Source of the DNA: Candidatus Anderseniibacteriota bacterium | Lineage (GTDB): Bacteria > Patescibacteriota > Andersenbacteria > UBA10190 | Assembly: GCA_021414205.1 (NCBI GenBank) | Contig: JAIOOW010000002.1 | Location: 18,692 to 82,691, forward strand | Length of the DNA stretch: 64,000 nucleotides | Direction of reading: 5' to 3' | Shown: positions 1,325 through 50,224 of the stretch, one piece after another | Position numbering within the stretch: the stretch's first letter is position 1 | Layout: each line of letters opens with the position of its first letter | Notes under the pieces: model-generated | Seen by the model: only the letters and a program-made list of their open reading frames with translations | What the model was told of the DNA's origin: nothing | Databases searched by the model: none | Program-made: the position numbers and the translations under genes

Positions 1325-1339
1325 AGTTCAACCAAAGCA

Positions 1340-2032: not shown

Positions 2033-2122
2033 GGAATGTGCCCTTTGCCAGTGAAATGTTCATTCGGAACCAATCGTAGATGAATTTACGCATAAATAAA
2101 TATAATTGTCAATAACGCTACA

Positions 2123-6940: not shown

Positions 6941-7153
6941 TATTTTCGGGTGTTCTGGTCTTTTCTCAAGGGGTCTACCATGGAAACTATCATCGATGCT
7001 TTTCGAACCGCAAGTCTGAGTTACTGGTTGGCATTGGGTGTCGTAGTGCTTGGTTTGTGTGTTGTTTGTTTTAAGCAAAGAAAACAAACAGGAAAATAAA
7101 CGACCCGTTGCGCCACTTCGACCTTCTGCGTTCCTTTCTAGGGGCGCAGTTAT

Positions 7154-19229: not shown

Positions 19230-20307
19230 CCTTATTAATATCATAATGCGTGCGCGCAGCTTGAAGCGCTTGGTCGGAGATTTTTATAGCATATTCATCG
19301 TCACCCATAATGTTTTTGATTTCCATTTTCATCTGATCTAGATCGCCGTTCACACAAACCCCATCACAAGCAACGTTCAACGAAATCACTGGGGTGCCGG
19401 ACAATGCTGCAATAATATAGGTGTTCGGAGATCCTTCGTAATCAGACGTTCCAATTAATATCCTTGCGCTAGATAATAAAGTATTTACTTGATCGGGCAG
19501 AAGCTCTCCATGAAAGACGAGATTAGAGTAGCGCGTTGCCTGCGCTGTGTATTTTTTATGCAATCGTGTGTCTCCGGACTCAGAGAGCACCATATCGAAT
19601 GAGTAGCTCGGGAGCTGTTCTACTACTTTAAAAAATATATCTGCGCGCTTCACTGTTCGAGAAGATCCGACCCATGCAATTCTTTTTTCTCGTTCTTGAA
19701 TTGGAATTATAGTACCTGGCACCGAATAGCCATTGCCTAATATTCTCGATTTTTTATGGTAATAGTTTTGCAAATCAGATTGCTGACGTTCATGCTGAAC
19801 AACAACAGCTTGAGCGTACCGTATTCCGAACCGATACAGTAATGCAGATACTGGGTCGAATGTTTTTTCTTTTACTGTATTGCAATCCACATCGCTCGCC
19901 GTTCTGAATATATATGTTGTTTTCGGAAAGAATATACAATACAAAGCAAGTAACCCCACTTCAGGTCCTGCAGGCGAAGAAATAATAACATCTGGCCTGC
20001 TTATTCGCAGTGCTTGAAATAAAAAAACTGGCGCAGTAAGTAAATTCCAAATACTTTTTCTGAGTTTGAATGCGGATACAACTGTAATATTGCCAAACTT
20101 TTCTACGCGCGGTTGGTTAAAGTTTCCTACAATGCAACTTACGGTAAACCGATCATCCTTTGCCAGGCTAGTCGCAAGTGTGTGCATCTGAACTTCCGTC
20201 CCCCCGATCTGCGCGCTGCTGCGTCGGTTAAAGAGTTTGTATGCATTAAAACACACGAAACTAACCCGAATTTGCCCTTTTGCATGTGCCATATACAATA
20301 GCTTCAT
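19174..20307 (-). CDS. GT4-like glycosyltransferase (GT-B).
   Basis: N-terminal GGTEVQMHTLA and C-terminal EGSPNTYIIAALSGTPVISLNV (EX7E-like). Its 3' end overlaps the convergent methyltransferase gene by 56 nt. Confidence 0.55.
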   Translation of the reverse strand: MKLLYMAHAKGQIRVSFVCFNAYKLFNRRSSAQIGGTEVQMHTLATSLAKDDRFTVSCIVGNFNQPRVEKFGNITVVSAFKLRKSIWNLLTAPVFLFQALRISRPDVIISSPAGPEVGLLALYCIFFPKTTYIFRTASDVDCNTVKEKTFDPVSALLYRFGIRYAQAVVVQHERQQSDLQNYYHKKSRILGNGYSVPGTIIPIQEREKRIAWVGSSRTVKRADIFFKVVEQLPSYSFDMVLSESGDTRLHKKYTAQATRYSNLVFHGELLPDQVNTLLSSARILIGTSDYEGSPNTYIIAALSGTPVISLNVACDGVCVNGDLDQMKMEIKNIMGDDEYAIKISDQALQAARTHYDINKVIVQWISVIQEMYYSQKN

Positions 20308-20312
20308 ACCAT

Positions 20313-22136
20313 ATGTGTGGCATTGCGGGCAAAGTATCGTTAGGAATGCGGAACGTCACAAATTCTGAAATTTCGGCAATGACAGATGCAATAGCTCACC
20401 GAGGGCCAGATGATACAGGTGCATATATTTCCCCAAATCGCAAAGTAGGGCTTGGTCATAGGAGGCTCTCCATTATCGACCTTTCTTCTGCCGGCCATCA
20501 GCCCATGCGATATATGGATCGTTATGAAATTGTATTTAATGGCGAGATATACAACTTCCAAGAAGAGAAAACGAAACTAGAAAAAGATGGCTATGTATTT
20601 TATTCGCATACGGATACGGAAGTTATCTTGGCGCTATACGATAAATATAAAGAGGATTGCGTTCAATATTTGCGGGGCATGTTCGCCTTTGCTATTTACG
20701 ATGAGCAAGATAACACCATATTCTGCACTCGTGACCGTGTTGGGCAAAAGCCATTTAAGTACTATCAAGACGAGAGCGTTTTTATATTCGGATCGGAATT
20801 AAAAACAATACTAACTCAGTCGGAATACAATAAGGAGCCAGACCGAGAAGCAATCATTGATTTCCTAGTACTGCAATACACCCCTGGAACTACAACTGGT
20901 TTTAAGCATATTAAAAAATTATTGCCAGGACACACCCTTTTGCTTGATATTAAGCAAAAGAAAACAAAAATAACGCCCTATTGGAATCTTCAATATGCAG
21001 AGAATCTCTCGCTTTCGCAGCAAGCATGGGAAGATAGTATTGCCAGCATGCTTCAAGAATCCGTCGCGGAGCAAATGATTTCTGATGTGCCCGTTGGCGC
21101 CATGCTTTCAGGGGGAATCGATTCTTCTATTATTGTTTCGCTCATGACACAGCAGTCCTCAAAACAAATAAATACATTTTCAGTTGGGTTTGAAGGAGAA
21201 CAAGTAAGCGAGCTTCCATACGCGAAAAAAATTGCGGAAAAATTCAACACGAGTCATCACGAATTACATATCAAGCCTACGAGCATAGATATTCTTCAGC
21301 AGCTTGTGCATGTAATGGAGGAGCCTTTCGGAGATCATGGGGCGCTCCCTACGCTTCTTATTAGCAAGCTTATGAAAGAGCATGTCACAGTAGCATTAAA
21401 CGGCGATGGCGGAGACGAAAATTTTGCAGGGTACGATCGATACACCGCATATAAGCTATCAAATATTCTTTCTCCGTATAATAGCCTTGCGCGAAGCGTC
21501 GCGCGCGCAATCCCAGTTGTATCAAAAACTGAACGATTGCACCGATTTATTGCGTCTTTGTCATATTCCCCAGAGCGAAGATATCTCGAATATATTTGCT
21601 ATATTTCTCCTCAAACTATGGACAGGTCATCCATTGAATCTATATCTCATGCATTTACATCGGAAAAATCTGCTGATTGGCTCAGCAAACTATTGTCCGC
21701 AGATCTTCATACCTACCTTCCAGGAGCCCTGCTTCCAAAAGTTGATATGGCTACTATGGCTTATTCCCTAGAAGCTCGTTCCCCGTTTTTCGATCATCGA
21801 TTTATGGAAATGGCAGCGAGTATTCCGTCTTCGCTGAAAATAAAAGGCTTGAATAACAGGAAATATATTCTCAAATCAGCTTTTAAAGATAGCATTCCAG
21901 AAGAAATTCTTCATAGAAAAAAGAGGGGCTTTAGCGTGCCCCTCGAGGCGTGGTTCCAAGATGATCTCCTGGCTTTTGCAATATCCCTCCTCAGCTCGCC
22001 CGCTACACGCTCAGCAGGATATATTTCTCATGAAAAAATACAGCATATACTTACAACCCATGCTCGGCACGGCAGCCAAGGCAGACAATTATGGATTCTC
22101 CTCATGCTTGAGCTGTGGCTTCGCGAGTTTTTCTAG
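20313..22136 (+). CDS. asnB: Asparagine synthetase B-type glutamine amidotransferase. Likely a glycan amidotransferase (WbpS-like) given the context.
   Basis: Starts MCGIAG (Cys2 nucleophile of class-II GATase). Has the SGGIDSS PP-loop of the synthetase domain and is about 600 aa. Start set at the MCGIAG Met; the ORF track starts 33 nt upstream. Confidence 0.8.
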   Translation: MCGIAGKVSLGMRNVTNSEISAMTDAIAHRGPDDTGAYISPNRKVGLGHRRLSIIDLSSAGHQPMRYMDRYEIVFNGEIYNFQEEKTKLEKDGYVFYSHTDTEVILALYDKYKEDCVQYLRGMFAFAIYDEQDNTIFCTRDRVGQKPFKYYQDESVFIFGSELKTILTQSEYNKEPDREAIIDFLVLQYTPGTTTGFKHIKKLLPGHTLLLDIKQKKTKITPYWNLQYAENLSLSQQAWEDSIASMLQESVAEQMISDVPVGAMLSGGIDSSIIVSLMTQQSSKQINTFSVGFEGEQVSELPYAKKIAEKFNTSHHELHIKPTSIDILQQLVHVMEEPFGDHGALPTLLISKLMKEHVTVALNGDGGDENFAGYDRYTAYKLSNILSPYNSLARSVARAIPVVSKTERLHRFIASLSYSPERRYLEYICYISPQTMDRSSIESISHAFTSEKSADWLSKLLSADLHTYLPGALLPKVDMATMAYSLEARSPFFDHRFMEMAASIPSSLKIKGLNNRKYILKSAFKDSIPEEILHRKKRGFSVPLEAWFQDDLLAFAISLLSSPATRSAGYISHEKIQHILTTHARHGSQGRQLWILLMLELWLREFF

Positions 22137-23352
22137 ATTCAACACGAATACTGTCCAGTAGCGCACGCAATGACCCATGTATCGGTCGCATGCCGGAAGT
22201 CGAAACATATTCTCCTCGTAGCGCTCGCTGAACAATAGCATCTCCGAATCTTTTATCAACAATTTCTCCTGATCGTTTTTTACCCGTAAGTATTACAGCG
22301 ATGGACGCCCCGGTTCTTAATAGTGTGTCTCTCGTAAAAGAAATAATCATCACCCAAGCATATTCATGCTCGATGCGTTCGGAAGTATTGCGAAAAAGAT
22401 CCCATAATACATTTACTGCATATTGATACATGATTCGAATTTCCGCAAAAGAATATGCAATACGCATTTGCGCAATTTCCCCCATGAGCATGGCCGTGCG
22501 ATATAATTTTTTACTTGTAAGGTGCGAGTCAATATACTCGCGGATGCGAACATTCTCTACATCATCTCGAAAAAACCATAGGGTGCATATCCGATGCATT
22601 GCAAAATTATCCTGACAATCCATTGCGCTTCGCACTGTCTCTGGTTGGACTGCCAAATAATTCTTAAAAGAAAACATGGATCGATCAGGGCTAATTCTTG
22701 GCCGATAATCAAATCGCGTAATAGCTTTTACTGCAGTTGTAACGCCTACACGAAGGTGGAGTTCATCAATACTATCGGCAATTCTGTAATTCATGTATCT
22801 ATCAGGCAACGTTGTTTGATATGCGTTTTCATTTCGAAAAATCTCCCTTATAACGACTGTGCTATACAGCGTATAGTTTGAATCTGTTAGCGCAAAATAT
22901 TCGAGATATATGGATTCTTCCGGGCTGAGCACATGCACATCAGAAGTAGGCATAAATAGCAGCTGAAGGCGATGCTCTAAGTGAACAATAAGTGAAGCAT
23001 AGGAAATGGAAGCTAGGTAATGCTTATGTATTTGCTCAACAGCAGATTCAATGAAATCTGGGTAATAGATATTGTCGTCATCTAAACGTACAAAATATTC
23101 TCCTTTTACATACGAGAATGCAGCATTCCAATTTTCAACCATCGGTAAGTCCGTATTCGATACATGATATTCTACGCGAGGATCTTGGATAAGGTCATCA
23201 ATATATTCTTTTGTACCATCGGAAGAATTATTGTCATGAACGATGATCTGTAAATTTTTATATGTTTGCTGAACGACGGACCGAAGTGCGTCTTGAAGAA
23301 ATTCTTTTCGATTGCGCGTCGGAATAACGACAGAAACGAGTGGGGGTGTCAT
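22102..23352 (-). CDS. GT2 family glycosyltransferase with a roughly 300-aa C-terminal extension of unknown function.
   Basis: VSVVIPTRNRKEFLQDALRSVVQQTY...IIVHDNNSSDGT...VRLDDDN (GT-A DxD). Its 3' end overlaps convergent asnB by 35 nt. Confidence 0.65.
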   Translation of the reverse strand: MTPPLVSVVIPTRNRKEFLQDALRSVVQQTYKNLQIIVHDNNSSDGTKEYIDDLIQDPRVEYHVSNTDLPMVENWNAAFSYVKGEYFVRLDDDNIYYPDFIESAVEQIHKHYLASISYASLIVHLEHRLQLLFMPTSDVHVLSPEESIYLEYFALTDSNYTLYSTVVIREIFRNENAYQTTLPDRYMNYRIADSIDELHLRVGVTTAVKAITRFDYRPRISPDRSMFSFKNYLAVQPETVRSAMDCQDNFAMHRICTLWFFRDDVENVRIREYIDSHLTSKKLYRTAMLMGEIAQMRIAYSFAEIRIMYQYAVNVLWDLFRNTSERIEHEYAWVMIISFTRDTLLRTGASIAVILTGKKRSGEIVDKRFGDAIVQRALRGEYVSTSGMRPIHGSLRALLDSIRVESRKTREATAQA

Positions 23353-24476
23353 TCCAGTATTGTAACGTCAGGGTTAATGGTAAGCAGCTGCTGCAAAATT
23401 TCTTCTCGATAGGCACCGACCTTTAACACAACCCCTATATTCTTTTTTCCCCTGATAACTTCTGGCTTGTATACCGTAAATGGAGTGCCATACAACCTCT
23501 TACCTTCTTTTATTGGAGAATTATCGAGAATGCCTACAACTTTTGTTTTATCCAGCCCAACTTCAAATAAGTATTGAGAAAAAATATGCCCACCAAATAC
23601 ATACACCTCATCCAAGCTATCCATTTGAGAGCTCAATAGAGTAATCAAATCTTTGTAATACTCAACAAAGTCCATGAACAATTTTTTATACTCAGTATAT
23701 TTGCTTTCAAGCTGTACAGCCTTTTGAGGTGTTGCCGTTTTTTCTGTCGTATAAAAAAAGCTATGATCTTTGTATGCATGCTTATCTATGATGCGGAATC
23801 CGTATTCAGCAAGCAGATAATCTACAAAGTAATCGGTGAGCAACATCGTATGCTCAAAATTCAACGAGGAGAGGTTTTTATTCGCCATCCACAAAGTCAA
23901 GTTCGGATATGCAAAGACAAGCTTATCTCCTTCTTTTAGATACGAAGCAATTGATTCTATAAATTCTCGCGGATCATATGCATGTTCCCATGTATGAGAA
24001 AACACCACCATATCGTATGAATCTTCGCTTTTAAAATTCTTATCAAAAAAACCTTTCATGATCGAAATATGATCATTCCCAGCATGTAGTGGATTCGGCT
24101 CAATAATTGTCCAATGACTATCCTGATTTTTCTCGATGAATTTTTCAGCAATAGCCCCCTGACCTCCGCCAATCTCTAAAACATTTTTTGGCTTATGAGC
24201 CGTAACATAATCCGCAAATACCTGGTAAAACGTTTGCCACGTAGAACCCGTCCCATCCATATGCTGAGCTTGATAGAGCAAGTCGGGCGGAACGAGTTCA
24301 GTTAGCTGAATAATTCCAGATTCCGGACAGATTGCCCAATTCATATCTACGCGAATATCTTCTTTCGGATCCGTATCGACGCACCCAAAAAATACGGGGA
24401 AGTTTTTATACTGATACAGGGGTTCTAGGTTTTCTTTTCCAGTAATAATGCTTTTATTTCGCTCAATGAGTTTCAT
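23349..24476 (-). CDS. SAM-dependent methyltransferase, sugar-modifying type (C- or O-methyltransferase with extra N- and C-terminal domains).
   Basis: Motif I VLEIGGGQGAIAEKF in the middle of a 375-aa protein. The three-part domain layout resembles NDP-sugar C-methyltransferases (TylC3-like) but lacks the N-terminal Cys4 cluster. ATGA overlap with both neighbours. Confidence 0.55.
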   Translation of the reverse strand: MKLIERNKSIITGKENLEPLYQYKNFPVFFGCVDTDPKEDIRVDMNWAICPESGIIQLTELVPPDLLYQAQHMDGTGSTWQTFYQVFADYVTAHKPKNVLEIGGGQGAIAEKFIEKNQDSHWTIIEPNPLHAGNDHISIMKGFFDKNFKSEDSYDMVVFSHTWEHAYDPREFIESIASYLKEGDKLVFAYPNLTLWMANKNLSSLNFEHTMLLTDYFVDYLLAEYGFRIIDKHAYKDHSFFYTTEKTATPQKAVQLESKYTEYKKLFMDFVEYYKDLITLLSSQMDSLDEVYVFGGHIFSQYLFEVGLDKTKVVGILDNSPIKEGKRLYGTPFTVYKPEVIRGKKNIGVVLKVGAYREEILQQLLTINPDVTILE

Positions 24477-24988
24477 ACTGTAAATTTATGGGTAAATAAA
24501 TCGAATGGCTCAAAAAATGTTTCAAGAATATGGAGACACGCCTCGGCAACTGCGCCTTCGCCCCCTCTTGCATTTGTCACAAAATCAGCTTGTTTCTTTG
24601 TTGCATAAAACGCATTAGCGGGCGCTATCGAGTAGGCAACGCGCTTAAACACGAGTGGGTCAAAGATGCCATCGCCCATATAAATAGTTTCGGACAAATC
24701 AAATCGCTTCTCTATCCACGCAACGCGGTCAAATGTGCTTACTAAATCAAGAGGTAAATGCATGTCGTCAGCTACTCTCCTCTTCGTAATAGCAAAACCA
24801 TTCTTGTCGCCCGATATAGCATGAAGCAAGAGCTTGTCTTTCAATAATGAAAGCGCATCGTTATCTTCTGGCCCAAATTTTTTCATTATCTTTCCTTCCG
24901 TGGTGTAGTAAAAAGTGCCATCAGTAAACACGCCATCGACGTCAAGAATGAAATTTTTAACTACCTTCTTTTGCATGGTGCTTTTCAT
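24473..24988 (-). CDS. KdsC-family HAD phosphatase (sugar-acid/sugar-phosphate phosphatase of the YrbI type).
   Basis: NFILDVDGVFTDGTFYY (KdsC motif I DVDGVLTDG), YMGDGIFDPLVFKRVAYSIAPANA (motif III GDDxxD), and C-terminal GGEGAVAEACLHIL (KdsC GGRGAVREVCDLIL). Around 170 aa. Confidence 0.65.
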   Translation of the reverse strand: MKSTMQKKVVKNFILDVDGVFTDGTFYYTTEGKIMKKFGPEDNDALSLLKDKLLLHAISGDKNGFAITKRRVADDMHLPLDLVSTFDRVAWIEKRFDLSETIYMGDGIFDPLVFKRVAYSIAPANAFYATKKQADFVTNARGGEGAVAEACLHILETFFEPFDLFTHKFTV

Positions 24989-26615
24989 TGTTTAATGCCC
25001 TAAATAGTTGCAATTTCCCGAAATAATAAAGGAATAAATCATACGGATGAGAGTGCAAGGGTGACATGTTTAACCATAAAATTGGAGTTAGTATGTCTAT
25101 CTTGCGAATATCCAATCCTCTTTCTATGATATATTGCTTTAAGATTTCTTGACACTCTACCAATCGCTCGCTTCGAAATATGTCGCATGTTACTACGTTT
25201 TTGTGCCGATCAATATTAAAATGACCGTAATTAATCATCTCGTGATTAATTACTAAGTTATGATTCAGCTTTGCGAGATCGTAATACATGTCGCCGCCTC
25301 GAATTAATCCTCCAAAATCTTGTCGCCAATCTAGAAGCGTATACCCTTTAGCAGTTTTAATAATATTGTCTGGAATAAAATCTCCGTGAAAAGAAGTCTG
25401 CTGAGTATCTGCAAGCCAATCAAAATCTACTTTTTTAAGTAGTGCCGCAAGTGACGGAACAGTTTCTCCATTAATGATGTTGGTACTATCTTTAATATTT
25501 CGTGTTTTTAAAAACTCCTGCGTGCGCTTTATTGTCTTTGTGTAATAAAAATCATAACAAATATCCTGAAAGCGCTTTGCAGAAACTTCTTTTTCGGGCT
25601 TCCAAACATTGCTAAACGCCCAATTCAGAAAATGAGGGAACGTTGCTGGAGTAATAACGGAAGCCAGCAGATCACCTTTTGCATATTTATACTTATAGAA
25701 ATGCGCTGTGGAACCCTCAATAGGAGGGACAAGCGAGCCAAGTGCACGAGCGCGTCGAACCCTATTTTTTGCAATAAGCGTATCGCTGAAGAATTTAACA
25801 ACGGAGGTTTTGAATAAATAAATAGATTCCGATGGCTTATCAAGAATATGGAATGAATCGTGAATCGCCTCTCGAGCTGCATTCAAGCTATCTACATTCC
25901 CTACGTCGTACCATGGATTAAACTCTATGCCGGTAAATACAGTGTCTCTCTCGAGCATTTGCTGCAGGATATCAACATCGCTCAGTGATTCATCTTCGGG
26001 ATTTGCTGCATATAAATCGATAGCACATTTCCAGAAAAGCTTATAATCGAATATCCCGACAAGACCGATGTGAAGATAGTCAGGGTTAAGATTCCCCTTT
26101 TCGGAAAAATACTGAATAACCCCATCAGCAATAGTAAATGATGCATATTGAGATGAATTTTCAGACACATATCCACCAGCCCAATTTTTTATAGGAAGAG
26201 GAATTTTTTGATGAACAATAGTGTCGGAAGCATGGTAAATAAACGGTTTCTGTAAATGCTTTTTTGCAGATAGCATGGAGTGGGCCAAGCTGCTCCCTTT
26301 TCCCGAATAGGTTTTCACAGGCACGAACGTTACGGAAATATTAGGATACACAAGAGAAATAAACTCTTTAACGTGTTCGCCGAAATGTCCGAGCGTGATT
26401 ACGAAATGAGTGTTCTTTGGGTACGACTCGATGATGTAGGAAAGAGCTGGCTTTCTTCCTATTTTCACTAATGCTTTATTCGTATATGTGGTGAGCTCTC
26501 CTAGCTTACTGCCTATTCCAGAGGTGGTAATCAATACAGTCAATTCCTGTTTTTGTTTTGGCATGAAAAAAGTGTTACACGGAGGAAAATAATCTACAAG
26601 CCTCTCTGTGGGCAT
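24957..26615 (-). CDS. Bifunctional sugar-1-phosphate nucleotidyltransferase (N-terminal) fused to an APH/choline-kinase-fold kinase (C-terminal).
   Basis: N-terminal LTVLITTSGIGSKLGELTTYTNKAL (G-x-G-T-R-L nucleotidyltransferase signature) and WYDVGNVDSLNAA. C-terminal FHGDFIPDNII...LLDWRQ (catalytic loop HGDxxxxN and the IDWE-equivalent of the APH/ChoK/anomeric sugar-kinase fold). The probable true start is MPKQKQ at 26564. Confidence 0.6.
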   Translation of the reverse strand: MPTERLVDYFPPCNTFFMPKQKQELTVLITTSGIGSKLGELTTYTNKALVKIGRKPALSYIIESYPKNTHFVITLGHFGEHVKEFISLVYPNISVTFVPVKTYSGKGSSLAHSMLSAKKHLQKPFIYHASDTIVHQKIPLPIKNWAGGYVSENSSQYASFTIADGVIQYFSEKGNLNPDYLHIGLVGIFDYKLFWKCAIDLYAANPEDESLSDVDILQQMLERDTVFTGIEFNPWYDVGNVDSLNAAREAIHDSFHILDKPSESIYLFKTSVVKFFSDTLIAKNRVRRARALGSLVPPIEGSTAHFYKYKYAKGDLLASVITPATFPHFLNWAFSNVWKPEKEVSAKRFQDICYDFYYTKTIKRTQEFLKTRNIKDSTNIINGETVPSLAALLKKVDFDWLADTQQTSFHGDFIPDNIIKTAKGYTLLDWRQDFGGLIRGGDMYYDLAKLNHNLVINHEMINYGHFNIDRHKNVVTCDIFRSERLVECQEILKQYIIERGLDIRKIDILTPILWLNMSPLHSHPYDLFLYYFGKLQLFRALNNEKHHAKEGS

Positions 26616-26702
26616 ATTGACATAAGCGTTCTTTTTTAGTATGCATACGGAGCAAGGGGTCCCGATTGATCATTCGAAAACTTAAAATAAAAGAAAGTCA
26701 TC

Positions 26703-27227
26703 ATGACGCCAGAAAGAAGTGCGTTACTTGCAGAACTGTTGGAAGAGTTGCTGAAGTTCAAACGAGCAGGCAATAATATGCCTCCGGCCGTGTTTGAGGC
26801 ATCGCTTCCCCTTTTCCCACAACTGGTTATTGAATTCCTGGTGTTTCGAAGCACGCCGTCGGAACGAAAAATTGAAATTCTCTTGGTAGAGAGACCTTCC
26901 AATGTCGCATATCCAAATCAATGGCATTGCCCAGGAACGTTTGTGCGTCCTGGTGATGCGATGGATCGAGCGTTCGAACGAGCACGGATTGGCAAACTGG
27001 GCGGAGCGATAATTACGCAAATAGAATTTCTGACCAACCAACTCTACGTCGATCCTAATCGCAATGATGCGACTATTTTAAGAATGGTTTATACGGTTCA
27101 GATTGCCGAAGAAGATAATCCGCCCAAAGGCAAATTTTTCGAAATCTACCCGAATAATAACCTACCCGCGGAACTGGTATGGGAACAGCCCATGCTCATT
27201 GATCTTTTTCCAATTCCGAATAACTAG
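26703..27227 (+). CDS. Hypothetical protein with a degenerate Nudix-like fold.
   Basis: IEILLVERPSNVAYPNQWHCPGTFVRPGDAMDRAFERARIGKLGG fits the Nudix beta-strand/loop/helix layout but lacks the canonical REUXEE glutamates. It fills the gap between two minus-strand transcription units and is followed by a strong rho-independent terminator, which supports it being a real gene. Confidence 0.3.
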   Translation: MTPERSALLAELLEELLKFKRAGNNMPPAVFEASLPLFPQLVIEFLVFRSTPSERKIEILLVERPSNVAYPNQWHCPGTFVRPGDAMDRAFERARIGKLGGAIITQIEFLTNQLYVDPNRNDATILRMVYTVQIAEEDNPPKGKFFEIYPNNNLPAELVWEQPMLIDLFPIPNN

Positions 27228-27246
27228 TGAACCGGTCAAAAGTAAA

Positions 27247-27287
27247 ACTCTACGAATGCAACTATGCGATCGTAGAGTTATTTTTTT
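27247..27287 (+). terminator. Rho-independent terminator downstream of the Nudix-like gene, possibly bidirectional.
   Basis: A perfect 9-bp stem (actctacga / tcgtagagt) with a 14-nt loop, followed by tattttttt. The stop codon of the convergent nucleotidyltransferase gene lies inside the loop. Confidence 0.55.
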
Positions 27288-27978
27288 GCAGATACTCTTC
27301 AGTTTTTGCCAATGCAGGAGGATTGCCGGTATCAAGCCAAACTGGAAATTGCACCAGGCGAATAGGGGTTGCATCTTGAAGCATAGGATTAAACGGAGAA
27401 GTATCGTTCATGGTTTGGTCATGAGGATTTGCTGCATATAAAGCTCTAAGATACTTCCAGTATGATTCGTAATTATTAATACCAAATAGACCGATTAATA
27501 CATTATGAGAATCACCCTCTTTTTTATCATTAATTCGGGTAATAATATTATCCATATCAGCCTGAATTGTTCGGTACTGACTCACATCACCGGGAATCGT
27601 ATGGCCAGCAATCCAATTTTTATCAGGAGCAGGTATAGCAGTATTAAGAACGACGGTATCGCATGCATGGAATATAAAAGGTTCTTGTAAATATGGTTCT
27701 GCTTGGAGCAAGGAGTATGCCAGACTGCTTCCATCGCCCTCATACTTATCTACATCAACAAACGTAATACTCCTGTCAGTGTAATGAGTTGTAAAGAAAT
27801 CCCGAACCTGATGAGCAAGATATCCAACAGTTATAACAAGTGGAATATCCGCGCTATATAAATCCAATATATACGAAATGGCAGGTTTCCCGGCAATAGG
27901 AACAAGAGCTTTGTTCGTATTCTTTGTAAGCGCTCCTAACCTAGAACCTGTTCCCGAAGTGGTAACAAGGACTTTCAT
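27262..27978 (-). CDS. Sugar-phosphate nucleotidyltransferase, paralogue of the N-terminal domain of 24957..26615.
   Basis: MKVLVTTSGTGSRLGALTKNTNKALVPIAGKP, ...LYAANP..., WLDTGNP. About 45% identical to the fused paralogue. Start set at MKVLV, 7 nt downstream of the rpe stop; the longer ORF would overlap rpe. Confidence 0.6.
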   Translation of the reverse strand: MKVLVTTSGTGSRLGALTKNTNKALVPIAGKPAISYILDLYSADIPLVITVGYLAHQVRDFFTTHYTDRSITFVDVDKYEGDGSSLAYSLLQAEPYLQEPFIFHACDTVVLNTAIPAPDKNWIAGHTIPGDVSQYRTIQADMDNIITRINDKKEGDSHNVLIGLFGINNYESYWKYLRALYAANPHDQTMNDTSPFNPMLQDATPIRLVQFPVWLDTGNPPALAKTEEYLQKNNSTIA

Positions 27979-27985
27979 AGATATA

Positions 27986-28648
27986 TTATAATAGCGTTTT
28001 TCTAAATGATTGTATTTTTTTGTCGAGTTGAGCAGGTGGTTGGAAGATAGTGCCCGTGCCACATACCAGCATGTTAGCCCCGGCTGCAACCATTTTATGA
28101 CCACTGTCTGGAGTTACTCCACCGTCTATTTCCAAGAAAATATCTTTTCCAGTTTCATCAATGCGTTTTCTTGCATCTGCAATCTTTTTCATCGTACCAG
28201 GAATAAGTTTATGCCCTACGATACCGGGGTTAATTGCCATCAACATCAATAAGTCCAAATCTTCAAGCACGTAGTCCAAGGTCGATAGCGACGTTCCGGG
28301 ATTTAAAGCGAGCCCTGCCTGAACACCAGCATTCTTAATCTTCATTACTGTACGATGAGGATGCATTAATGGCTCAATATGAGGAGTTATAATAGTTGCT
28401 CCAGCATCCACGAAATCTTGAATATATGGTTCCGGATTTTGAACCATCATATGTACTTCGATAGGAATGTTCGTTTTTGAACGTATTGCTTTTAAGTATT
28501 CGGGAAATAGCCCATATCGCGGAACAAACACCCCGTCCATCACGTCAAAATGAATGTAATCAATTTTTCCCTTTTTTAATGCGGCCAAATCTTTTTGGAG
28601 ATTAAGAGGATTTCCACAAATAATAGAAGCAGCTAGATTGCAGTGCAT
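27986..28648 (-). CDS. rpe: Ribulose-phosphate 3-epimerase family protein (Rpe or an allulose/hexulose-phosphate 3-epimerase relative).
   Basis: IHFDVMDGVFVP, EVHMMV, GG...VTPDS...AGAN...VCGT, the hallmark motifs of the RPE TIM-barrel. 220 aa. Confidence 0.7.
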   Translation of the reverse strand: MHCNLAASIICGNPLNLQKDLAALKKGKIDYIHFDVMDGVFVPRYGLFPEYLKAIRSKTNIPIEVHMMVQNPEPYIQDFVDAGATIITPHIEPLMHPHRTVMKIKNAGVQAGLALNPGTSLSTLDYVLEDLDLLMLMAINPGIVGHKLIPGTMKKIADARKRIDETGKDIFLEIDGGVTPDSGHKMVAAGANMLVCGTGTIFQPPAQLDKKIQSFRKTLL

Positions 28649-28650
28649 AG

Positions 28651-29241
28651 TTATTCTAAATTAGAATGACGAGCCCACATCGTGTCGTGCGTTTCATGCA
28701 TCTGCTCCATCAGCATAAGCACGAGGCAGTCAAATAAAATTCCGAGGCATTGCTCGTTTAATGTCGTCATCGGCTGAATAGAAGTGAATCCTTCAACTTG
28801 CTTTGTCTTAGATGGTGCTGGCAACAAAATAATAGCGTCTGCAAGCTTACCCATTCGCGAATCAGGGTTACCAGTAATAAGTGCAATTCGAGCCCCATTT
28901 TTATGGGCAATTTCTACAAGATCGTATATCGTCTGCGTTTCCCCTGACCCAGAAGCAACAATCAATAGATCGCCTTTTCCTAGTGCGGGTACCGTTGCAT
29001 CTCCAAGCATATGCACATGCTTGCCTAAGTGCGCCAATCGCATTGCAAAACCACGAACTGCCATGCCGACACGGCCAGCACCGCATGCGACGATCGTATT
29101 AGCATACTGAATCTCTCGTAAAAATTCTTCCGCTTCTTGTTGGTTAACTTTTCCTAATACCCATGAGATTTCGGCGAGGATCTGGAAAGAGGTTGTTTGT
29201 ATGTGAGTCTTTTGACTTCCTGCTGTTTCTGATTTGTTCAT
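28651..29241 (-). CDS. SIS-domain sugar-phosphate isomerase of the 6-phospho-3-hexuloisomerase (PHI/HxlB) / KdsD clade. Not GmhA-like.
   Basis: VACGAGRVGMAVRGFAMRLAHLG...GDLLIVASGSGET...TIQPM...HANLE. The single SIS domain (196 aa) with the AGRSG..FAMRL and SGSGET signature is PHI-type. The GNGGSA motif of GmhA is absent. Confidence 0.6.
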   Translation of the reverse strand: MNKSETAGSQKTHIQTTSFQILAEISWVLGKVNQQEAEEFLREIQYANTIVACGAGRVGMAVRGFAMRLAHLGKHVHMLGDATVPALGKGDLLIVASGSGETQTIYDLVEIAHKNGARIALITGNPDSRMGKLADAIILLPAPSKTKQVEGFTSIQPMTTLNEQCLGILFDCLVLMLMEQMHETHDTMWARHSNLE

Positions 29242-29281: not shown

Positions 29282-30562
29282 TCAGGAATGCAGTATATCG
29301 CTCGAATGTTTGCCGATATATCCTTTGTGCCAAAAGAAGTACAGAAAAGCAAAGTAGAGAAATACGATTCCAAAAGAAAATGGCGCAGCAAATAGCCCGA
29401 TACTTGGCAAGAAATACCAAAGCAATCCAATAAAAATGGATCCTCCGATCACGCTTTGTGCTGCGATGAAGAAAAAGTATTTTGGACCAAAACTTAAGAA
29501 AACATTCACGTATACGGTGTACAGGAACGTTAAAGTTGCATACATACCCATCGCCATACCAAGAGGTATAGATAGCGGATATTGCTTACCAAATAATGAG
29601 AACAAAACGATGCAGACCAGTGTAAAAAATAAAAATAGGGGAACAATGCTAATAATCACAATTCGAGAAAGCTGCTTCATTAATGCTCTCCCGTCGCTTC
29701 GATGAGCAACTTCAGGAAATAGGACGTTCATAATAATATTACTCAACTGCATCGCAATCGACACAGATACGACCGCATAGGCGCTATAAATACCAAGTTG
29801 CACATGCCCAAGGCGATGCTCAACAACTATTTTATCTATGCTTAAAAAAAGAATTGTACCAACGGCTGAAAGAACTCCAAATTTACCATACGCCCAAGAT
29901 TGTATCCCTTGAGCAGTATTTATTTTTAAATGAGGCACTGTCCGCAAAATCGCAATGAGATACGATGCGATAGAGAAAAGAGCACCGCATGAAAGACTGA
30001 AAATAAGGTTTCCATATCCATGCTTATTAAATAACTCATATAGAATATAGAAGGCGCCCAATGATATCGCGGCATCCCCTACTTTAATAAGCGATTGGAA
30101 TCGAAACCCTCCCGTTGCACGGATAACAGAATCAAGACCAACTCGAACTGCAAGCAACGCCATAAATCCAATAGATATATCAAATAGAAAAACTGGGATT
30201 TGAAAAAAAGAACTTGCATATGAGCTTACGGCATACAATATCCCCGATGATGCGACAATAATGCCAAAGAGGAATAAAAACCCTGACAGCGCAGCCTCGC
30301 CAACATTATACGTTTTCTTTGCTAGTACAATGCTTCGGATGATCGCCACATCCATACCCTGAACCGGAAAAGAAAATATTTGCACAAGCGCCAACACAAG
30401 CCCATACGAAGCAAATTCTTTTGGCCCCAACACTCTCCCGCTAATAACATAGGTACTGATAGAGATAAGAGATGCTATGGCAAATCCAATAAATGAATAG
30501 GAAAGATTTGCTAAAAATGCCCGTATATTGCCGCTTAGTATGTCTTTGAAATATCGAATCAT
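29282..30562 (-). CDS. Wzx-type oligosaccharide flippase (polysaccharide biosynthesis protein, MOP superfamily).
   Basis: 426 aa with roughly 12 TM helices. The N-terminal IRAFLANLSYSFIGFAIASLISISTYVISGRVLGPKEFASYGLVLAL pattern is typical of PST/Wzx proteins. Confidence 0.6.
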   Translation of the reverse strand: MIRYFKDILSGNIRAFLANLSYSFIGFAIASLISISTYVISGRVLGPKEFASYGLVLALVQIFSFPVQGMDVAIIRSIVLAKKTYNVGEAALSGFLFLFGIIVASSGILYAVSSYASSFFQIPVFLFDISIGFMALLAVRVGLDSVIRATGGFRFQSLIKVGDAAISLGAFYILYELFNKHGYGNLIFSLSCGALFSIASYLIAILRTVPHLKINTAQGIQSWAYGKFGVLSAVGTILFLSIDKIVVEHRLGHVQLGIYSAYAVVSVSIAMQLSNIIMNVLFPEVAHRSDGRALMKQLSRIVIISIVPLFLFFTLVCIVLFSLFGKQYPLSIPLGMAMGMYATLTFLYTVYVNVFLSFGPKYFFFIAAQSVIGGSIFIGLLWYFLPSIGLFAAPFSFGIVFLYFAFLYFFWHKGYIGKHSSDILHS

Positions 30563-41061: not shown

Positions 41062-41119
41062 ATAAAACGTATCATTATTGCCTATATATTCATATTTGTC
41101 AAGTTTTTTGTGGGTAAGT

Positions 41120-50205: not shown

Positions 50206-50224
50206 ACTGATATACTACACCAAT

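What the first reader, a model, noticed from the sequence alone, without database searches (positions are those of the whole stretch)
24473..29241. Compact operon combining Rpe-family epimerase, PHI/KdsD-type SIS isomerase, KdsC-family phosphatase, kinase-nucleotidyltransferase fusion and a second nucleotidyltransferase: candidate novel NDP-sugar pathway (possibly NDP-D-arabinose)
Six tightly spaced or overlapping minus-strand genes (gaps of -32 to +7 nt), interrupted by one embedded plus-strand Nudix-like gene, look like a self-contained nucleotide-sugar synthesis module. Every enzyme is recruited from a family normally used for something else.

The genes are:
- A single-domain SIS isomerase (28651..29241) with the PHI/HxlB signature GAGRxG..FAMRL..SGSGET...HANLE. 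It is not GmhA-type.
- An RPE TIM-barrel (27986..28648).
- A standalone sugar-1-P nucleotidyltransferase (27262..27978).
- A nucleotidyltransferase fused to an APH/choline-kinase-fold kinase (24957..26615).
- A KdsC/YrbI-family HAD phosphatase (24473..24988).

One coherent reading:
- Rpe converts Xu5P to Ru5P.
- The SIS isomerase converts Ru5P to arabinose-5-P, as KdsD does.
- The KdsC-like phosphatase releases free D-arabinose.
- The APH-fold kinase phosphorylates it at the anomeric position and the fused nucleotidyltransferase makes NDP-D-arabinose.
This would be a bacterial analogue of the trypanosomatid GDP-D-arabinopyranose route, which uses a SIS isomerase, a phosphatase and a bifunctional kinase/pyrophosphorylase. 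An alternative is that PHI acts on F6P/hexulose-6-P and the product is an NDP-ketohexose or allulose derivative.

Downstream in the same operon are a sugar-type SAM methyltransferase and a GT2, and a Wzx flippase lies upstream. The product is therefore probably methylated and transferred onto the surface glycan. KdsA, NeuB and GHMP kinases are absent, so the module is not the Kdo, nonulosonate or GDP-heptose pathway.
Basis: partly seen in the sequence, partly recalled or inferred. Interest (0 to 1): 0.78.

Follow-up and report, generated by a model that had tools for sequence, protein, structure and literature searches.

The report
Sugar-activation operon in a CPR bacterium
A tightly packed operon in an uncultured Andersenbacteria genome appears to turn a common sugar phosphate into a rare nucleotide-activated sugar for the cell surface, using an enzyme set related to one that phages use to make UDP-arabinose for DNA decoration.

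Summary
The window comes from a Candidatus Andersenbacteria (CPR) MAG.

The core is a nucleotidyltransferase–kinase fusion plus a HAD phosphatase. It is conserved in hundreds of uncultured bacteria and viral contigs, in two mutually exclusive versions:
- **Type A (this window):** HxlB-like SIS isomerase, RPE-like epimerase, and a KdsC-like phosphatase.
- **Type B:** PMI-type cupin and a GatZ/class-II-aldolase-like protein.

The fusion is a distant homologue of the phage AfhE-type enzyme (RB69 gp52:53). According to the literature, that enzyme phosphorylates arabinofuranose-5-P at C1. A HAD phosphatase (AfhF) then removes the 5-phosphate, and the N-terminal domain makes UDP-arabinofuranose.

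The most likely order here is therefore isomerase, then kinase (bisphosphate), then phosphatase, then nucleotidyltransferase.

The sugar is unresolved. D-arabinose remains possible. However, the RPE-like protein carries the one-residue β8-loop insertion typical of allulose-6-P epimerase, and the SIS protein is a hexuloisomerase type. Both point to a fructose-6-P-derived hexose.

I rate this a new variant of a known kind, uncharacterised and widespread.

The parts
29282..30562 (-). Wzx/MOP-family flippase, first gene of the minus-strand block
   Evidence: PF13440 41.9 bits and PF01943 34.5 bits. A Wzx also sits directly upstream of the SIS gene in L001, L003 and L091.
28651..29241 (-). Single-domain SIS isomerase of the 6-phospho-3-hexuloisomerase (HxlB/PHI) family. 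Proposed to be the ketose-phosphate isomerase of the module.
   Evidence: TIGR03127 194.9 bits, above the 160 cutoff. Best PDB matches are B. subtilis YckF at 121 bits and the B. fragilis API 3etn at 35 bits. Present in the type-A loci.
27986..28648 (-). RPE-family (β/α)8 epimerase with an AlsE-like β8-loop insertion and an altered lid. Proposed ketose-phosphate 3-epimerase.
   Evidence: PF00834 208 bits; TIGR01163 213.8 against 212.6. Potato RPE 1rpx scores 172 bits and AlsE 3ct7 scores 114 bits. The loop is CGTGTIF, with 28 residues from DGG to F as in AlsE, against 27 in E. coli Rpe. HMMER opens a one-residue gap in 4 of the 5 PDB RPE alignments shown. The lid reads NPGIVGH instead of NPGFGGQ.
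27262..27978 (-). Standalone nucleotidyltransferase, a kinase-less paralogue of the fusion's N-terminal domain
   Evidence: 43% identity over 228 aa to fusion residues 8-232. It keeps the GxGxR arginine (SGTGSRLG). It is present only in the window, L001/L002 and L091-L093.
26703..27227 (+). Nudix-like ORF embedded on the opposite strand; role unknown
   Evidence: PF00293 20.4 bits, below the 21.1 cutoff. Conserved at 71% and 51% identity at the same position in L091 and L092, but the Nudix box lacks the REUxEE glutamates.
24957..26564 (-). Bifunctional protein: N-terminal sugar-phosphate nucleotidyltransferase (about residues 1-250) fused to a C-terminal APH-fold kinase (about 255-535). It is AfhE-like and is the core of the module.
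24473..24988 (-). KdsC/YrbI-like C0-type HAD phosphatase, overlapping the fusion by 32 nt. Proposed to remove the distal phosphate.
   Evidence: TIGR01670 70.1 bits, below the 106.95 cutoff. PDB KdsC-family hits score up to 64 bits. The DVDGV and GDGxxD motifs are present. It follows the fusion in 18 of 21 type-A loci and is fused to it in L063 and P0119.
23349..24476 (-). SAM methyltransferase with a weak C-methyltransferase-type C-terminal domain; a frequent companion of the module
   Evidence: PF13489 55 bits and PF08484 21.3 bits. Homologues lie in 22 of 88 loci of both types. Similarity to TcaB9 is only weak, E 0.03.
22102..23352 (-). GT2 glycosyltransferase, candidate user of the activated sugar
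   Evidence: PF00535 96.9 bits. An NT-kinase-GT2 fusion protein exists (P0353).

Best explanation
The block encodes an AfhE/AfhF-type 'phosphate-relocation' route to a nucleotide-activated sugar for a Wzx-dependent surface glycan.

**Proposed steps**
1. A central ketose phosphate is epimerised by the RPE-like enzyme.
2. The HxlB-like SIS enzyme isomerises the product.
3. The C-terminal APH-fold kinase of the fusion phosphorylates the anomeric hydroxyl of the resulting sugar phosphate, giving a 1,n-bisphosphate.
4. The KdsC-like HAD phosphatase removes the distal phosphate.
5. The N-terminal nucleotidyltransferase domain, and/or its standalone paralogue, condenses the sugar-1-phosphate with an NTP.
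6. The methyltransferase and GT2 then modify and transfer the sugar.

**What is shown and what is inferred**
- Shown here: gene content, synteny, domain fusions, folds, and distant homology of the fusion to the phage family.
- Inferred: every catalytic step, the step order (by homology to phage AfhE/AfhF), and the substrate.

**My preferred substrate reading**
Fructose-6-P is converted to D-allulose-6-P and then to an aldohexose-6-P of the allo/altro series. The product would be an NDP-hexose.

**Sub-probabilities**
- Mechanism class: about 0.7.
- Kinase-before-phosphatase order: about 0.6.
- Hexose from F6P: about 0.35.
- D-arabinose: about 0.2.
- Something else: about 0.45.
For: **1. Conserved module**
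- SIS-RPE-fusion-HAD appears in several CPR phyla and beyond.
- HAD follows the fusion in 18 of 21 type-A loci and is fused to it in one more.
- Rosetta-stone fusions exist: NT-kinase-HAD, cupin-NT-kinase, NT-kinase-GatZ-like and NT-kinase-GT2.

**2. Homology to the phage enzyme family**
- Fusion profile against Enterococcus phage 9183 ORF047: probability 98.9%, E 3e-17, both domains aligned.
- Kinase profile against RB69 gp52: 33 bits over model positions 21-255, probability 93%.
- The same profile finds nothing above 13 bits in the whole PDB.
- The shared motif is D-[W/P]-R-x-x-[F/Y]-G…GD-x-x-YD-x-AK.

**3. Published activities**
- RB69 gp52:53 is described as analogous to HY126 AfhE.
- AfhE converts Araf5P to Araf1,5P, AfhF converts that to Araf1P, and AfhE then makes UDP-Araf (PMC13326640).

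**4. Interchangeable feeder pairs**
- The feeder pair is swapped around the same core. CPR type-B fusions nest inside the CPR type-A clade.
- Each pair consists of one metal-dependent TIM-barrel 'enediolate' enzyme and one aldose-ketose-type isomerase.
- The characterised relatives of all four (AlsE, PHI, PMI, GatZ-type 4-epimerase) use fructose-6-P. This is own knowledge of those families.

**5. The RPE-like enzyme is not canonical**
- It has a one-residue β8-loop insertion as in AlsE and an altered lid, in all 20 full-length type-A copies aligned.
- From my memory of Chan et al. 2008 (Biochemistry 47:9608), this extra residue lengthens the site for a hexulose-6-P, and deleting it shifts preference towards Ru5P.

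**6. Related contigs add other 6-P/1-P-type enzymes next to the standalone NT**
- A PfkB kinase plus a Cof-type HAD in L092.
- A β-phosphoglucomutase-family HAD in L093.
Against: - Homology to the phage enzymes is remote: 21-24% identity, and the NT domain scores only 13.5 bits against RB69 gp53.
- HY126 AfhE itself could not be compared, and the primary papers were not readable.
- The phosphatase here is KdsC-type, not AfhF-type. Characterised KdsC-family enzymes release free sugar acids.
- The SIS protein scores as a bona fide PHI. PHI chemistry (2-ketose to 3-ketose) does not produce an aldose. In register and stereochemistry it corresponds to Ru5P/A5P isomerisation, which favours arabinose.
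- The RPE-like protein is globally closer to true RPEs (172 bits) than to AlsE (114 bits). Loop length alone is modest evidence.
- The window's fused NT has Lys in place of the usual GxGxR arginine.
- More than half of type-B loci with sufficient flanks show no phosphatase within 4 kb.
- The nucleotide used is unknown.
Confidence: 0.55

Rival explanations
1. NDP-D-arabinofuranose pathway. This keeps the first reader's sugar but uses the phage step order. RPE supplies Ru5P from Xu5P. The PHI-like SIS acts as an arabinose-5-P isomerase. The kinase makes Araf-1,5-bisphosphate, the KdsC-like HAD removes the 5-phosphate, and the NT makes NDP-Araf for the surface glycan.
For: - The homologous phage system makes UDP-Araf from Ru5P with exactly this logic.
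- PHI (Hu6P to F6P) and API (Ru5P to A5P) are equivalent in register and stereochemistry, because Hu6P is Ru5P with an extra C1 hydroxymethyl (chemical reasoning).
- The RPE-like protein is globally nearest to genuine RPEs.
- The PfkB kinase in L092 is most similar to ribokinase, a pentofuranose kinase.
Against: - Phage systems need no RPE. A module-specific RPE paralogue is hard to explain if Ru5P/Xu5P are already equilibrated by a housekeeping enzyme.
- That paralogue carries the AlsE-type β8 insertion and a non-canonical lid.
- The SIS protein is not API-type: KdsD 24 bits and 3etn 35 bits, against HxlB 195 bits.
- RB69 API gave no phmmer match to any window protein, the SIS included, even at E<=10.
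- The type-B feeder enzymes (PMI cupin, GatZ-like) belong to hexose-6-P families.
Confidence: 0.2
2. Phosphatase-first salvage-type order. The HAD enzyme releases the free sugar from its terminal phosphate. The APH-fold kinase then phosphorylates the anomeric position, and the NT activates the sugar. This follows the logic of MupP/AmgK/MurU for MurNAc.
For: - Characterised KdsC-family enzymes produce free sugars before nucleotide activation.
- Many type-B loci lack a dedicated phosphatase. That is easier to tolerate if a generic sugar-6-P phosphatase would suffice.
Against: - As PMC13326640 reports for phage HY126 AfhE, the analogue of the RB69 and phage 9183 proteins compared here, the kinase acts on the sugar phosphate and the HAD on the bisphosphate.
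- An invariant Arg directly follows the Mg-binding Asp (DWR here, DPR in phages). Choline kinases have Glu at this position (own knowledge of their motif). Arg fits an anionic substrate; this is an inference.
- MurU and AmgK family models score far below their cutoffs.
Confidence: 0.15
3. LicC/LicA-like module. The kinase phosphorylates a small alcohol or a non-anomeric hydroxyl, and the NT makes a CDP-linked phospho-donor. The glycan would then be decorated with a phospho-substituent rather than a glycosyl residue.
For: - Some sources name homologues 'choline kinase'.
- The NT-then-kinase domain order matches known LicCA fusions (own knowledge).
Against: - Only one of eight long-fusion proteins scanned (P0353) hits the Pfam Choline_kinase model, and that is a faint 15.7 bits against a cutoff of 29.
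- The module is obligately linked to sugar-phosphate isomerases, epimerases and a phosphatase. That linkage makes no sense for choline.
- Profile homology is much stronger to the phage sugar-phosphate kinase than to any solved choline kinase.
Confidence: 0.05
4. No dedicated pathway. Housekeeping rpe and a RuMP-type phi simply lie next to an unrelated nucleotidyltransferase operon.
For: The RPE-like protein just passes the curated rpe threshold, and the SIS protein passes the HxlB threshold. CPR genomes are small, and housekeeping genes may sit in odd places.
Against: - The SIS-RPE pair is linked to the fusion and HAD, in two different gene orders, in 21 loci from diverse lineages and one viral contig.
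- It is replaced as a unit by cupin + GatZ-like in other loci.
- No HPS partner for PHI was found.
- The RPE substrate loops are altered.
Confidence: 0.03

Closest known systems
Phage UDP-D-arabinofuranose pathway: API + AfhE (HY126; RB69 gp52:53, DLP3 gp82) + AfhF (RB69 gp51), used to arabinosylate 5-hydroxycytosine in DNA (PMC13326640; He et al. 2026; Mahler et al. 2025)
   Same: - A SIS isomerase, a bifunctional N-terminal nucleotidyltransferase / C-terminal APH-fold kinase, and a HAD phosphatase.
- The fusion family is distantly homologous and shares the D-x-R…GD..YD.AK kinase motif.
- The AfhF-type small HAD is found in type-B versions of the module.
   Different: - The isomerase here is PHI/HxlB-type, not KdsD/API-type.
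- An RPE-like epimerase is added.
- The phosphatase is KdsC-type, not AfhF-type.
- The context is a Wzx/GT/methyltransferase surface-glycan island in a CPR bacterium, not a ThyA-like DNA-modification cluster.
- A second, kinase-less NT paralogue is present.
- The sugar may not be arabinose.
ADP-/GDP-glycero-manno-heptose pathways (GmhA, HldE or HddA/HddC, GmhB)
   Same: The logic is identical: a SIS isomerase makes an aldose phosphate, a kinase makes the 1,7-bisphosphate, a HAD phosphatase removes the distal phosphate, and an NT activates the sugar. HldE is also a kinase-NT fusion (own knowledge).
   Different: - Every protein comes from a different family: PHI not GmhA, APH fold not PfkB/GHMP, RmlA/LicC-like NT not the cytidylyltransferase fold, KdsC-type not GmhB-type.
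- GmhA models score only about 22 bits.
- The heptose route has no sugar-phosphate-level epimerase.
MurNAc recycling shortcut MupP / AmgK / MurU
   Different: - The order there is phosphatase, kinase, NT, via the free sugar.
- The proteins are not fused.
- Curated MurU models score 17-27 bits against cutoffs of 250-370.
E. coli D-allose catabolic enzymes AlsE / RpiB (run in reverse)
   Same: An RPE-family enzyme with the one-residue-longer β8 loop, followed by a ketose-6-P/aldose-6-P isomerase. This would give allulose-6-P and then allose-6-P from F6P.
   Different: - The epimerase is not in the AlsE clade: NF007266 scores 158 against a cutoff of 271, and it reads N rather than D in the NPG motif.
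- The isomerase is SIS, not RpiB.
- The direction and purpose would be anabolic.
Trypanosomatid GDP-D-arabinopyranose route
   Same: Isomerase, then phosphatase, then a bifunctional kinase/pyrophosphorylase.
   Different: The bifunctional enzyme there is Fkp-like, with a GHMP kinase (own knowledge). There is no homology, and the route passes through free arabinose.

Membership tests
AfhE-type bifunctional sugar-phosphate kinase / NDP-sugar pyrophosphorylase (phage) | One polypeptide with an N-terminal RmlA/MurU/LicC-like NT and a C-terminal APH-fold kinase, homologous to RB69 gp52:53 / HY126 AfhE | tested here: met
AfhE/AfhF phage UDP-Araf system | Partner phosphatase of the small AfhF type (RB69 gp51-like HAD) | tested here: not met
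   RB69 gp51 matches the 124-aa HAD of type-B loci (E 1e-18 to 1e-8) but not the window's HAD, which is KdsC-type.
AfhE/AfhF phage UDP-Araf system | KdsD/API-type arabinose-5-P isomerase as the entry enzyme | tested here: not met
   The window SIS scores HxlB 194.9 bits against KdsD 23.6 bits, and YckF 121 bits against API 3etn 35 bits. RB69 gp55 gave no phmmer match to any window protein, the SIS included, even at E<=10.
AfhE/AfhF phage UDP-Araf system | Product is UDP-D-arabinofuranose; kinase substrate is Araf5P | not testable with these tools
   Needs enzymology.
AfhE/AfhF phage UDP-Araf system | Embedded in a DNA-hypermodification cluster (ThyA-like 5hodCMP synthase, dNMP kinase, DNA glycosyltransferases) | tested here: not met
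   The window context is Wzx, GT2, GT4, methyltransferases and AsnB. By contrast, phage 9183 has Tmk, ThyA-like, dUTPase, HAD and the fusion.
6-phospho-3-hexuloisomerase (HxlB/PHI, RuMP pathway) | Sequence above the curated equivalog-domain cutoff | tested here: met
   TIGR03127 194.9 bits against 160.
6-phospho-3-hexuloisomerase (HxlB/PHI, RuMP pathway) | Works with a 3-hexulose-6-P synthase (HxlA/HPS) partner | tested here: not met
   No HPS-like gene was found among the window ORFs scanned or in the called genes of the related loci.
Ribulose-phosphate 3-epimerase (housekeeping RPE) | Curated rpe score, canonical five-residue G-S-x-x-F β8 phosphate loop and NPGFGGQ lid | tested here: not met
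   The score only just reaches the cutoff (213.8 against 212.6). The β8 loop is one residue longer (GTGTIF) and the lid reads NPGIVGH, in all 20 full-length type-A copies aligned.
[quoted passage not shown] | Curated AlsE score | tested here: not met
   NF007266 158.3 bits against 271. 3ct7 scores 114 bits against 172 for a true RPE.
[quoted passage not shown] | β8 loop one residue longer than in RPE (the specificity element of Chan et al. 2008; own recollection, paper not held) | tested here: met
   There are 28 residues from DGG to F in the window protein and in E. coli AlsE, against 27 in E. coli Rpe. A gap is opened in 4 of the 5 PDB RPE alignments shown.
KdsC/YrbI Kdo-8-P phosphatase | Curated family score, and KdsA/KdsB partners | tested here: not met
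   TIGR01670 70.1 bits against 106.95, and PRK09484 61.8 bits against 208. No KdsA or KdsB was found in the window. The HAD catalytic motifs are present.
NDP-heptose pathway (GmhA / HldE / GmhB) | GmhA-type SIS, PfkB or GHMP heptose kinase, GmhB phosphatase | tested here: not met
   GmhA models score about 22 bits. The kinase has the APH fold. The HAD is KdsC-like. Only the pathway logic is shared.
LicC/LicA phosphocholine activation | Choline-kinase family kinase and a choline-specific pocket | tested here: inconclusive

The most novel reading that the evidence does not exclude
The type-A module makes a nucleotide-activated rare hexose of the C3-epimeric series (D-allose, D-altrose or D-psicose) directly from fructose-6-phosphate. 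The route would run through allulose-6-P and a 1,6-bisphosphate. This would be a de novo nucleotide-sugar route that bypasses NDP-glucose/mannose chemistry altogether. Its type-B sibling (PMI cupin + GatZ-like epimerase) would make a C4-epimeric counterpart in marine and freshwater microbes and large viruses. No paper in the searched library mentions UDP-, GDP- or CDP-allose or allose-1-phosphate.
Probability: 0.3. Interest if true: 0.8.

Novelty: new variant of a known kind. Interest (0 to 1): 0.62.

Why it matters
**Surface glycans of CPR bacteria**
- Nothing is known experimentally about these glycans. CPR organisms live attached to hosts, so their envelope matters.
- This module is one of the few CPR-wide, strongly conserved glycan-precursor systems. 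Fusion proteins from different CPR phyla share 52-58% identity.
- It predicts a defined, testable activity.

**A general solution, not a phage curiosity**
- The recently described phage AfhE/AfhF chemistry looks like one branch of a much larger family.
- At 50% clustering the kinase domain has 374 clusters at E<=1e-30 and 755 at E<=1e-10.
- Related modules occur in CPR bacteria, other uncultured bacteria, a Clostridia-type natural-product cluster, and 165 IMG/VR viral contigs.

**Evolution and application**
- The two interchangeable feeder pairs offer a natural experiment in how new nucleotide sugars evolve by swapping an epimerase/isomerase cassette in front of a constant activation core.
- The enzymes could be useful for chemo-enzymatic synthesis of rare NDP-sugars.

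Tried and rejected
1. **GDP/ADP-heptose pathway.** Rejected: the GmhA, HldE and GmhB models score far below their cutoffs.
2. **Kdo or nonulosonate pathway.** Rejected: there is no KdsA, NeuB or KdsB, and the HAD is below the KdsC threshold.
3. **Housekeeping rpe by chance adjacency.** Rejected on synteny and altered loops.
4. **Choline kinase / LicCA.** Structural hits are non-discriminating and the context is wrong.
5. **Genome-contig scan with a single protein.** It found only one locus (L008). An alignment should have been used, so this cap was wasted.
6. **Literature searches.** Searches for hexuloisomerase + nucleotidyltransferase + kinase + capsular polysaccharide, and for Patescibacteria + nucleotide sugar, found nothing relevant.
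7. **Papers not held.** Chan et al. 2008, He et al. 2026 and Mahler et al. 2025 could not be read. The AlsE loop rule rests on my recollection, and the AfhE/AfhF activities rest on the account given in PMC13326640.
8. **Kinase-domain profile against the PDB.** No significant hit.
9. **Methyltransferase against the PDB.** Only weak similarity to TcaB9 (E 0.03), so a C-methylated 4-keto sugar cannot be claimed.
10. **Search for PHI active-site literature.** Unproductive.
11. **Looking for cultured carriers.** No named or cultured cellular organism appeared among the best 120 hits of either protein search. The only cultured carriers found are the Enterococcus phages.
12. **RmlB-like dehydratases without RmlA.** These occur in 71 loci. 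I judged this too weak to prove a hexose, because viruses can use host UDP-glucose.
13. **Second rpe in the same genome.** I could not determine whether type-A genomes carry one, because only ±10 kb around each hit is accessible.

Full report
**1. The observation**

The window is a Candidatus Andersenbacteria (CPR/Patescibacteria) MAG. The fusion protein is 100% identical to an NCBI MAG protein.

Two start codons need trimming:
- The standalone nucleotidyltransferase (NT) most likely starts at the ATG at 27978, giving 238 aa, as in its homologues.
- The fusion starts at M18, giving 24957-26564 and 535 aa.

Profile searches confirm each family:
- **SIS.** It is a 6-phospho-3-hexuloisomerase type: TIGR03127 194.9 bits against a cutoff of 160. 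GmhA and KdsD models score only 22-24 bits.
- **Epimerase.** It is RPE-family: PF00834 208 bits.
- **NTs.** Both match PF00483/PF12804.
- **HAD.** It is a sub-threshold KdsC-family member: 70 bits against 107.
- **Downstream and upstream genes.** They are a class-I methyltransferase with a weak C-methyltransferase C-terminal domain, a GT2 and a Wzx.

The rest of the window is a large envelope-glycan island. It contains many GT4 and GT2 genes, a GT9, AsnB, a second Wzx, YfhO-like proteins, an RmlA/RmlB-like pair, MurA and MreB. It has no KdsA, NeuB, GmhA, HldE or GHMP kinase, no tRNA and no Rfam hit.

**2. What the thing is**

The fusion has more than 1,400 detectable relatives. It shares 52-58% identity with proteins from many CPR phyla.

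The kinase domain alone defines a discrete family. At 50% clustering, out of 1.84 billion representatives, it has 374 clusters at E<=1e-30 and 755 at E<=1e-10. Nearly always the protein is about 525 aa with the kinase at residues about 250-525.

*Gene neighbourhoods.* I examined 8 contigs found by look-up, 80 metagenome loci and 80 viral-contig loci. They show two mutually exclusive versions of one module.
- **Type A** (the window, 21 metagenome loci and 1 viral locus) has HxlB-like SIS + RPE-like + fusion + KdsC-like HAD.
  - The order is either SIS-RPE-fusion-HAD or fusion-HAD-SIS-RPE.
  - The HAD follows the fusion in 18 of 21 loci and is fused to it in L063 and P0119.
- **Type B** (65 metagenome loci and 79 of the 80 best viral loci) has a roughly 115-aa PMI-type cupin + fusion + a roughly 325-aa class-II-aldolase/GatZ-like protein.
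  - About a third of the loci with enough flank also have a HAD phosphatase, either KdsC-like or a 124-aa type.

*Fusion proteins.* Proteins exist that join cupin-NT-kinase, NT-kinase-GatZ-like, NT-kinase-HAD and NT-kinase-GT2. All these parts therefore work together.

*Tree.* In a neighbour-joining tree of the fusions, the CPR type-B proteins nest inside the CPR type-A clade. The 'feeder pair' has been swapped in front of an unchanged activation core.

*The extra NT and the Nudix-like ORF.*
- The standalone NT of the window is a kinase-less paralogue of the fused NT domain (43% identity).
- It occurs only in the window's close relatives and in Moranbacteria.
- In related contigs it is accompanied by a ribokinase-like PfkB kinase plus a Cof-type HAD (L092), or by a β-phosphoglucomutase-family HAD (L093).
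- The opposite-strand Nudix-like ORF is a real, conserved gene (71% and 51% identity in L091 and L092), but its Nudix box is degenerate.

**3. The decisive comparison**

*How the lead arose.* A tblastn of a type-B fusion against GenBank phages found weak full-length matches in Enterococcus phages 9183, Planchet and TJE4. There the gene sits in the order thymidylate kinase, ThyA-like, dUTPase, small HAD, NT-kinase. This led to the recent literature on arabinosylated 5-hydroxycytosine.

*What the literature says.* PMC13326640 (Nucleic Acids Res 2026) summarises He et al. (Nat Chem Biol 2026) and Mahler et al. (Cell Host Microbe 2025). Its account is as follows:
- Phages RB69, DLP3, HY126 and others make UDP-D-arabinofuranose from ribulose-5-P.
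- They use an arabinose-5-P isomerase, the bifunctional AfhE and the Mg-dependent HAD phosphatase AfhF.
- AfhE has an N-terminal pyrophosphorylase and a C-terminal kinase. The kinase converts Araf5P to Araf-1,5-bisphosphate.
- AfhF gives Araf1P.
- RB69 gp52:53 is described as the AfhE analogue and gp51 as the AfhF analogue.

*Homology tests run here.*
- An HMM of the window family's kinase domain hits RB69 gp52 at 33 bits over model positions 21-255.
- hhalign of that profile gives 93% probability and E 3e-7 over 230 columns.
- The whole-fusion profile aligns with phage 9183 ORF047 at 98.9% probability and E 3e-17 over 463 columns, covering both domains.
- The same kinase profile finds nothing above 13 bits in the entire PDB.
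- The families share a distinctive motif after the catalytic loop: D-[W/P]-R-x-x-[F/Y]-G…GD-x-x-YD-x-AK. The position after the Mg-binding Asp is an invariant Arg. From my own knowledge of the choline-kinase motif, choline kinases have Glu at that position.
- RB69 gp51 is clearly homologous to the small HAD of type-B loci (E down to 1e-18) but not to the window's KdsC-like HAD.
- RB69's API gave no phmmer match to any window protein, the SIS included, even at E<=10.

**4. How it most likely works**

By homology with AfhE/AfhF, and in parallel with the heptose pathways (GmhA, HldE, GmhB), I propose this sequence:
1. The SIS and RPE-like enzymes convert a central ketose phosphate into an unusual sugar phosphate.
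2. The kinase domain phosphorylates its anomeric hydroxyl.
3. The KdsC-like HAD removes the distal phosphate from the bisphosphate. A KdsC-type site that normally recognises a distal phosphate together with an anionic C1/C2 group would suit this; that is an inference.
4. The NT domain, and/or the standalone NT, makes the NDP-sugar.
5. The methyltransferase, GT2 and Wzx process it into a surface glycan.

Gene content, synteny, fusions, folds and remote homology are shown here. All activities and the step order are inferred. It remains a live but less likely rival.

**5. Which sugar?**

*Evidence for D-arabinose.*
- The homologous phage pathway makes it.
- The PHI reaction (3-hexulose-6-P to F6P) is the register and stereochemical equivalent of Ru5P to A5P.
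- The RPE-like protein is globally closest to true RPEs: 172 bits to 1rpx against 114 bits to AlsE.

*Evidence against D-arabinose and for a hexose.*
- The phage systems need no RPE.
- The module-linked RPE-like proteins all carry a one-residue insertion in the loop after β8 (GTGTIF).
  - From DGG to F there are 28 residues, as in E. coli AlsE (GTSGLF). E. coli Rpe has 27.
  - The PDB RPEs have a five-residue G-S-A-x-F loop, and HMMER opens a one-residue gap in 4 of the 5 alignments shown.
- They also have a non-canonical lid, NPGIVGH or NPGIPKH instead of NPGFGGQ.
- As I recall Chan et al. 2008, that extra residue is what elongates the AlsE site for a hexulose-6-phosphate, and deleting it shifts preference to Ru5P. 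The paper could not be retrieved.
- The SIS protein belongs to a hexulose-6-P family.
- The interchangeable type-B pair (PMI cupin, GatZ-type) also has relatives that act on fructose-6-P.
- RmlB-like 4,6-dehydratases accompany 71 loci without any canonical RmlA. I regard this as weak evidence.

My estimates are: an F6P-derived hexose (allulose-6-P to an allo/altro aldohexose, or a psicose derivative) about 0.35; D-arabinose about 0.2; something else about 0.45.

**6. Comparison with the known, and novelty**

The closest known system is the phage AfhE/AfhF UDP-Araf pathway.
- The window shares with it the bifunctional enzyme family and the overall logic.
- It fails three membership features: an API-type isomerase, an AfhF-type phosphatase and a DNA-modification context.
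- It adds an epimerase and a second NT.

It works like the heptose pathway but shares none of that pathway's protein families.

No characterised or named member of the cellular branch was found. No literature on NDP-allose-type sugars exists in the searched library.

I classify this as a new variant of a known kind. It is an uncharacterised, widespread cellular (and giant-virus or phage-associated) branch of a recently described enzyme system. The nucleotide sugar it produces has not been identified here and may be new.

**7. Verdict**
  - The module and the 'arabinose-like' logic are right.
  - The step order probably needs reversing.
  - The sugar is more likely a hexose than arabinose, but it remains open.
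- Interest is moderately high. The module gives a concrete, testable handle on CPR surface glycans. It also extends a newly described phage pathway to a large family with two interchangeable feeder cassettes.

Noticed in passing
window 26703-27227 (+); L091 6393-6914; L092 6335-6859: A conserved 174-aa Nudix-like protein lies on the opposite strand between the standalone NT and the fusion. It has invariant WHCPG and VWEQPML motifs, but its Nudix box is degenerate (no REUxEE glutamates). It is probably not a canonical hydrolase, and its role is unknown.
   Followed up: partly
window 5858-6940 (+): A GT9 (heptosyltransferase-family) glycosyltransferase (PF01075, 121.7 bits) sits in a CPR glycan island with no GmhA/HldE-type heptose genes in the window. 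A weak GT9-like hit also sits next to the module in the Eubacteriales locus L008 (6626-7999). The module's NDP-sugar could be its donor.
   Followed up: no
L094-L173 (IMG/VR viral contigs): IMG/VR holds 165 relatives of the fusion. Of the 80 best, 79 are type B (cupin-fusion-GatZ-like, often with an AfhF-like HAD and an RmlB-like dehydratase) and one is type A (L100). They include contigs of 200-280 kb and a giant-virus MAG (GVMAG-S-1035079-49). The module may be common in large viruses of marine and freshwater hosts.
   Followed up: partly
L175 (Enterococcus phage 9183, MT939241.1 28004-31731); also phages Planchet and TJE4: Cultured Enterococcus phages carry thymidylate kinase, ThyA-like, dUTPase, a small HAD and the NT-kinase fusion in a row. 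This is the signature of a glycosylated-pyrimidine DNA modification. I found no mention of it for these phages in the papers I read, and I did not search for it specifically.
   Followed up: partly
L092 3616-6220; L093 5518-6976: In close relatives, the standalone NT is accompanied by a ribokinase-like PfkB kinase plus a Cof/S6PP-like HAD (L092), or by a β-phosphoglucomutase-family HAD (L093). This suggests a second, parallel activation route that the window has lost.
   Followed up: partly
L008 (Eubacteriales MAG CBCTCU010000001.1) 66-12777: A type-B module (HAD, GatZ-like, cupin, fusion) is embedded in what looks like a natural-product cluster. The cluster has a radical-SAM/SPASM protein, a carrier-protein domain, two carbamoyltransferases and an EryCIII-like GT1.
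   Followed up: no
window 24957-26564 (fusion residues 15-22): The fused NT domain has SGIGSKLG, with Lys in place of the near-universal GxGxR arginine. Some other CPR homologues have Q, P, S or G at this position. All 81 metagenome-locus fusions in which the motif could be located keep Arg; it could not be located in 5 others. The standalone paralogue also keeps Arg. This may be a division of labour or a decay of the fused NT.
   Followed up: partly
P0283 (724 aa), P0222 (4564 aa): In one homologue the fusion is preceded by a GIY-YIG/NUMOD3 homing-endonuclease module, which hints at a phage or mobile origin. Another 'protein' of 4,564 aa matches the kinase query in 43 stretches. It could be a repeat protein or an assembly artefact.
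   Followed up: no
window 30612-32774, 33714-35087, 38386-40095, 41078-43279, 46065-48173, 48787-50205, 50183-52429, 52433-54235: Eight ORFs of 457-748 aa have no Pfam match at E<=1e-4. The translations of the first two look like polytopic membrane proteins; the other six were not examined. They may be unrecognised GT-C-type glycosyltransferases or polymerases of the CPR envelope.
   Followed up: no
window 20280-22136 (+): An asparagine-synthase-type amidotransferase (PF00733, 331 bits) is embedded on the opposite strand inside the glycan operon. It is conserved at the same place in L091. The glycan may therefore carry an amidated uronic acid or a similar group.
   Followed up: no
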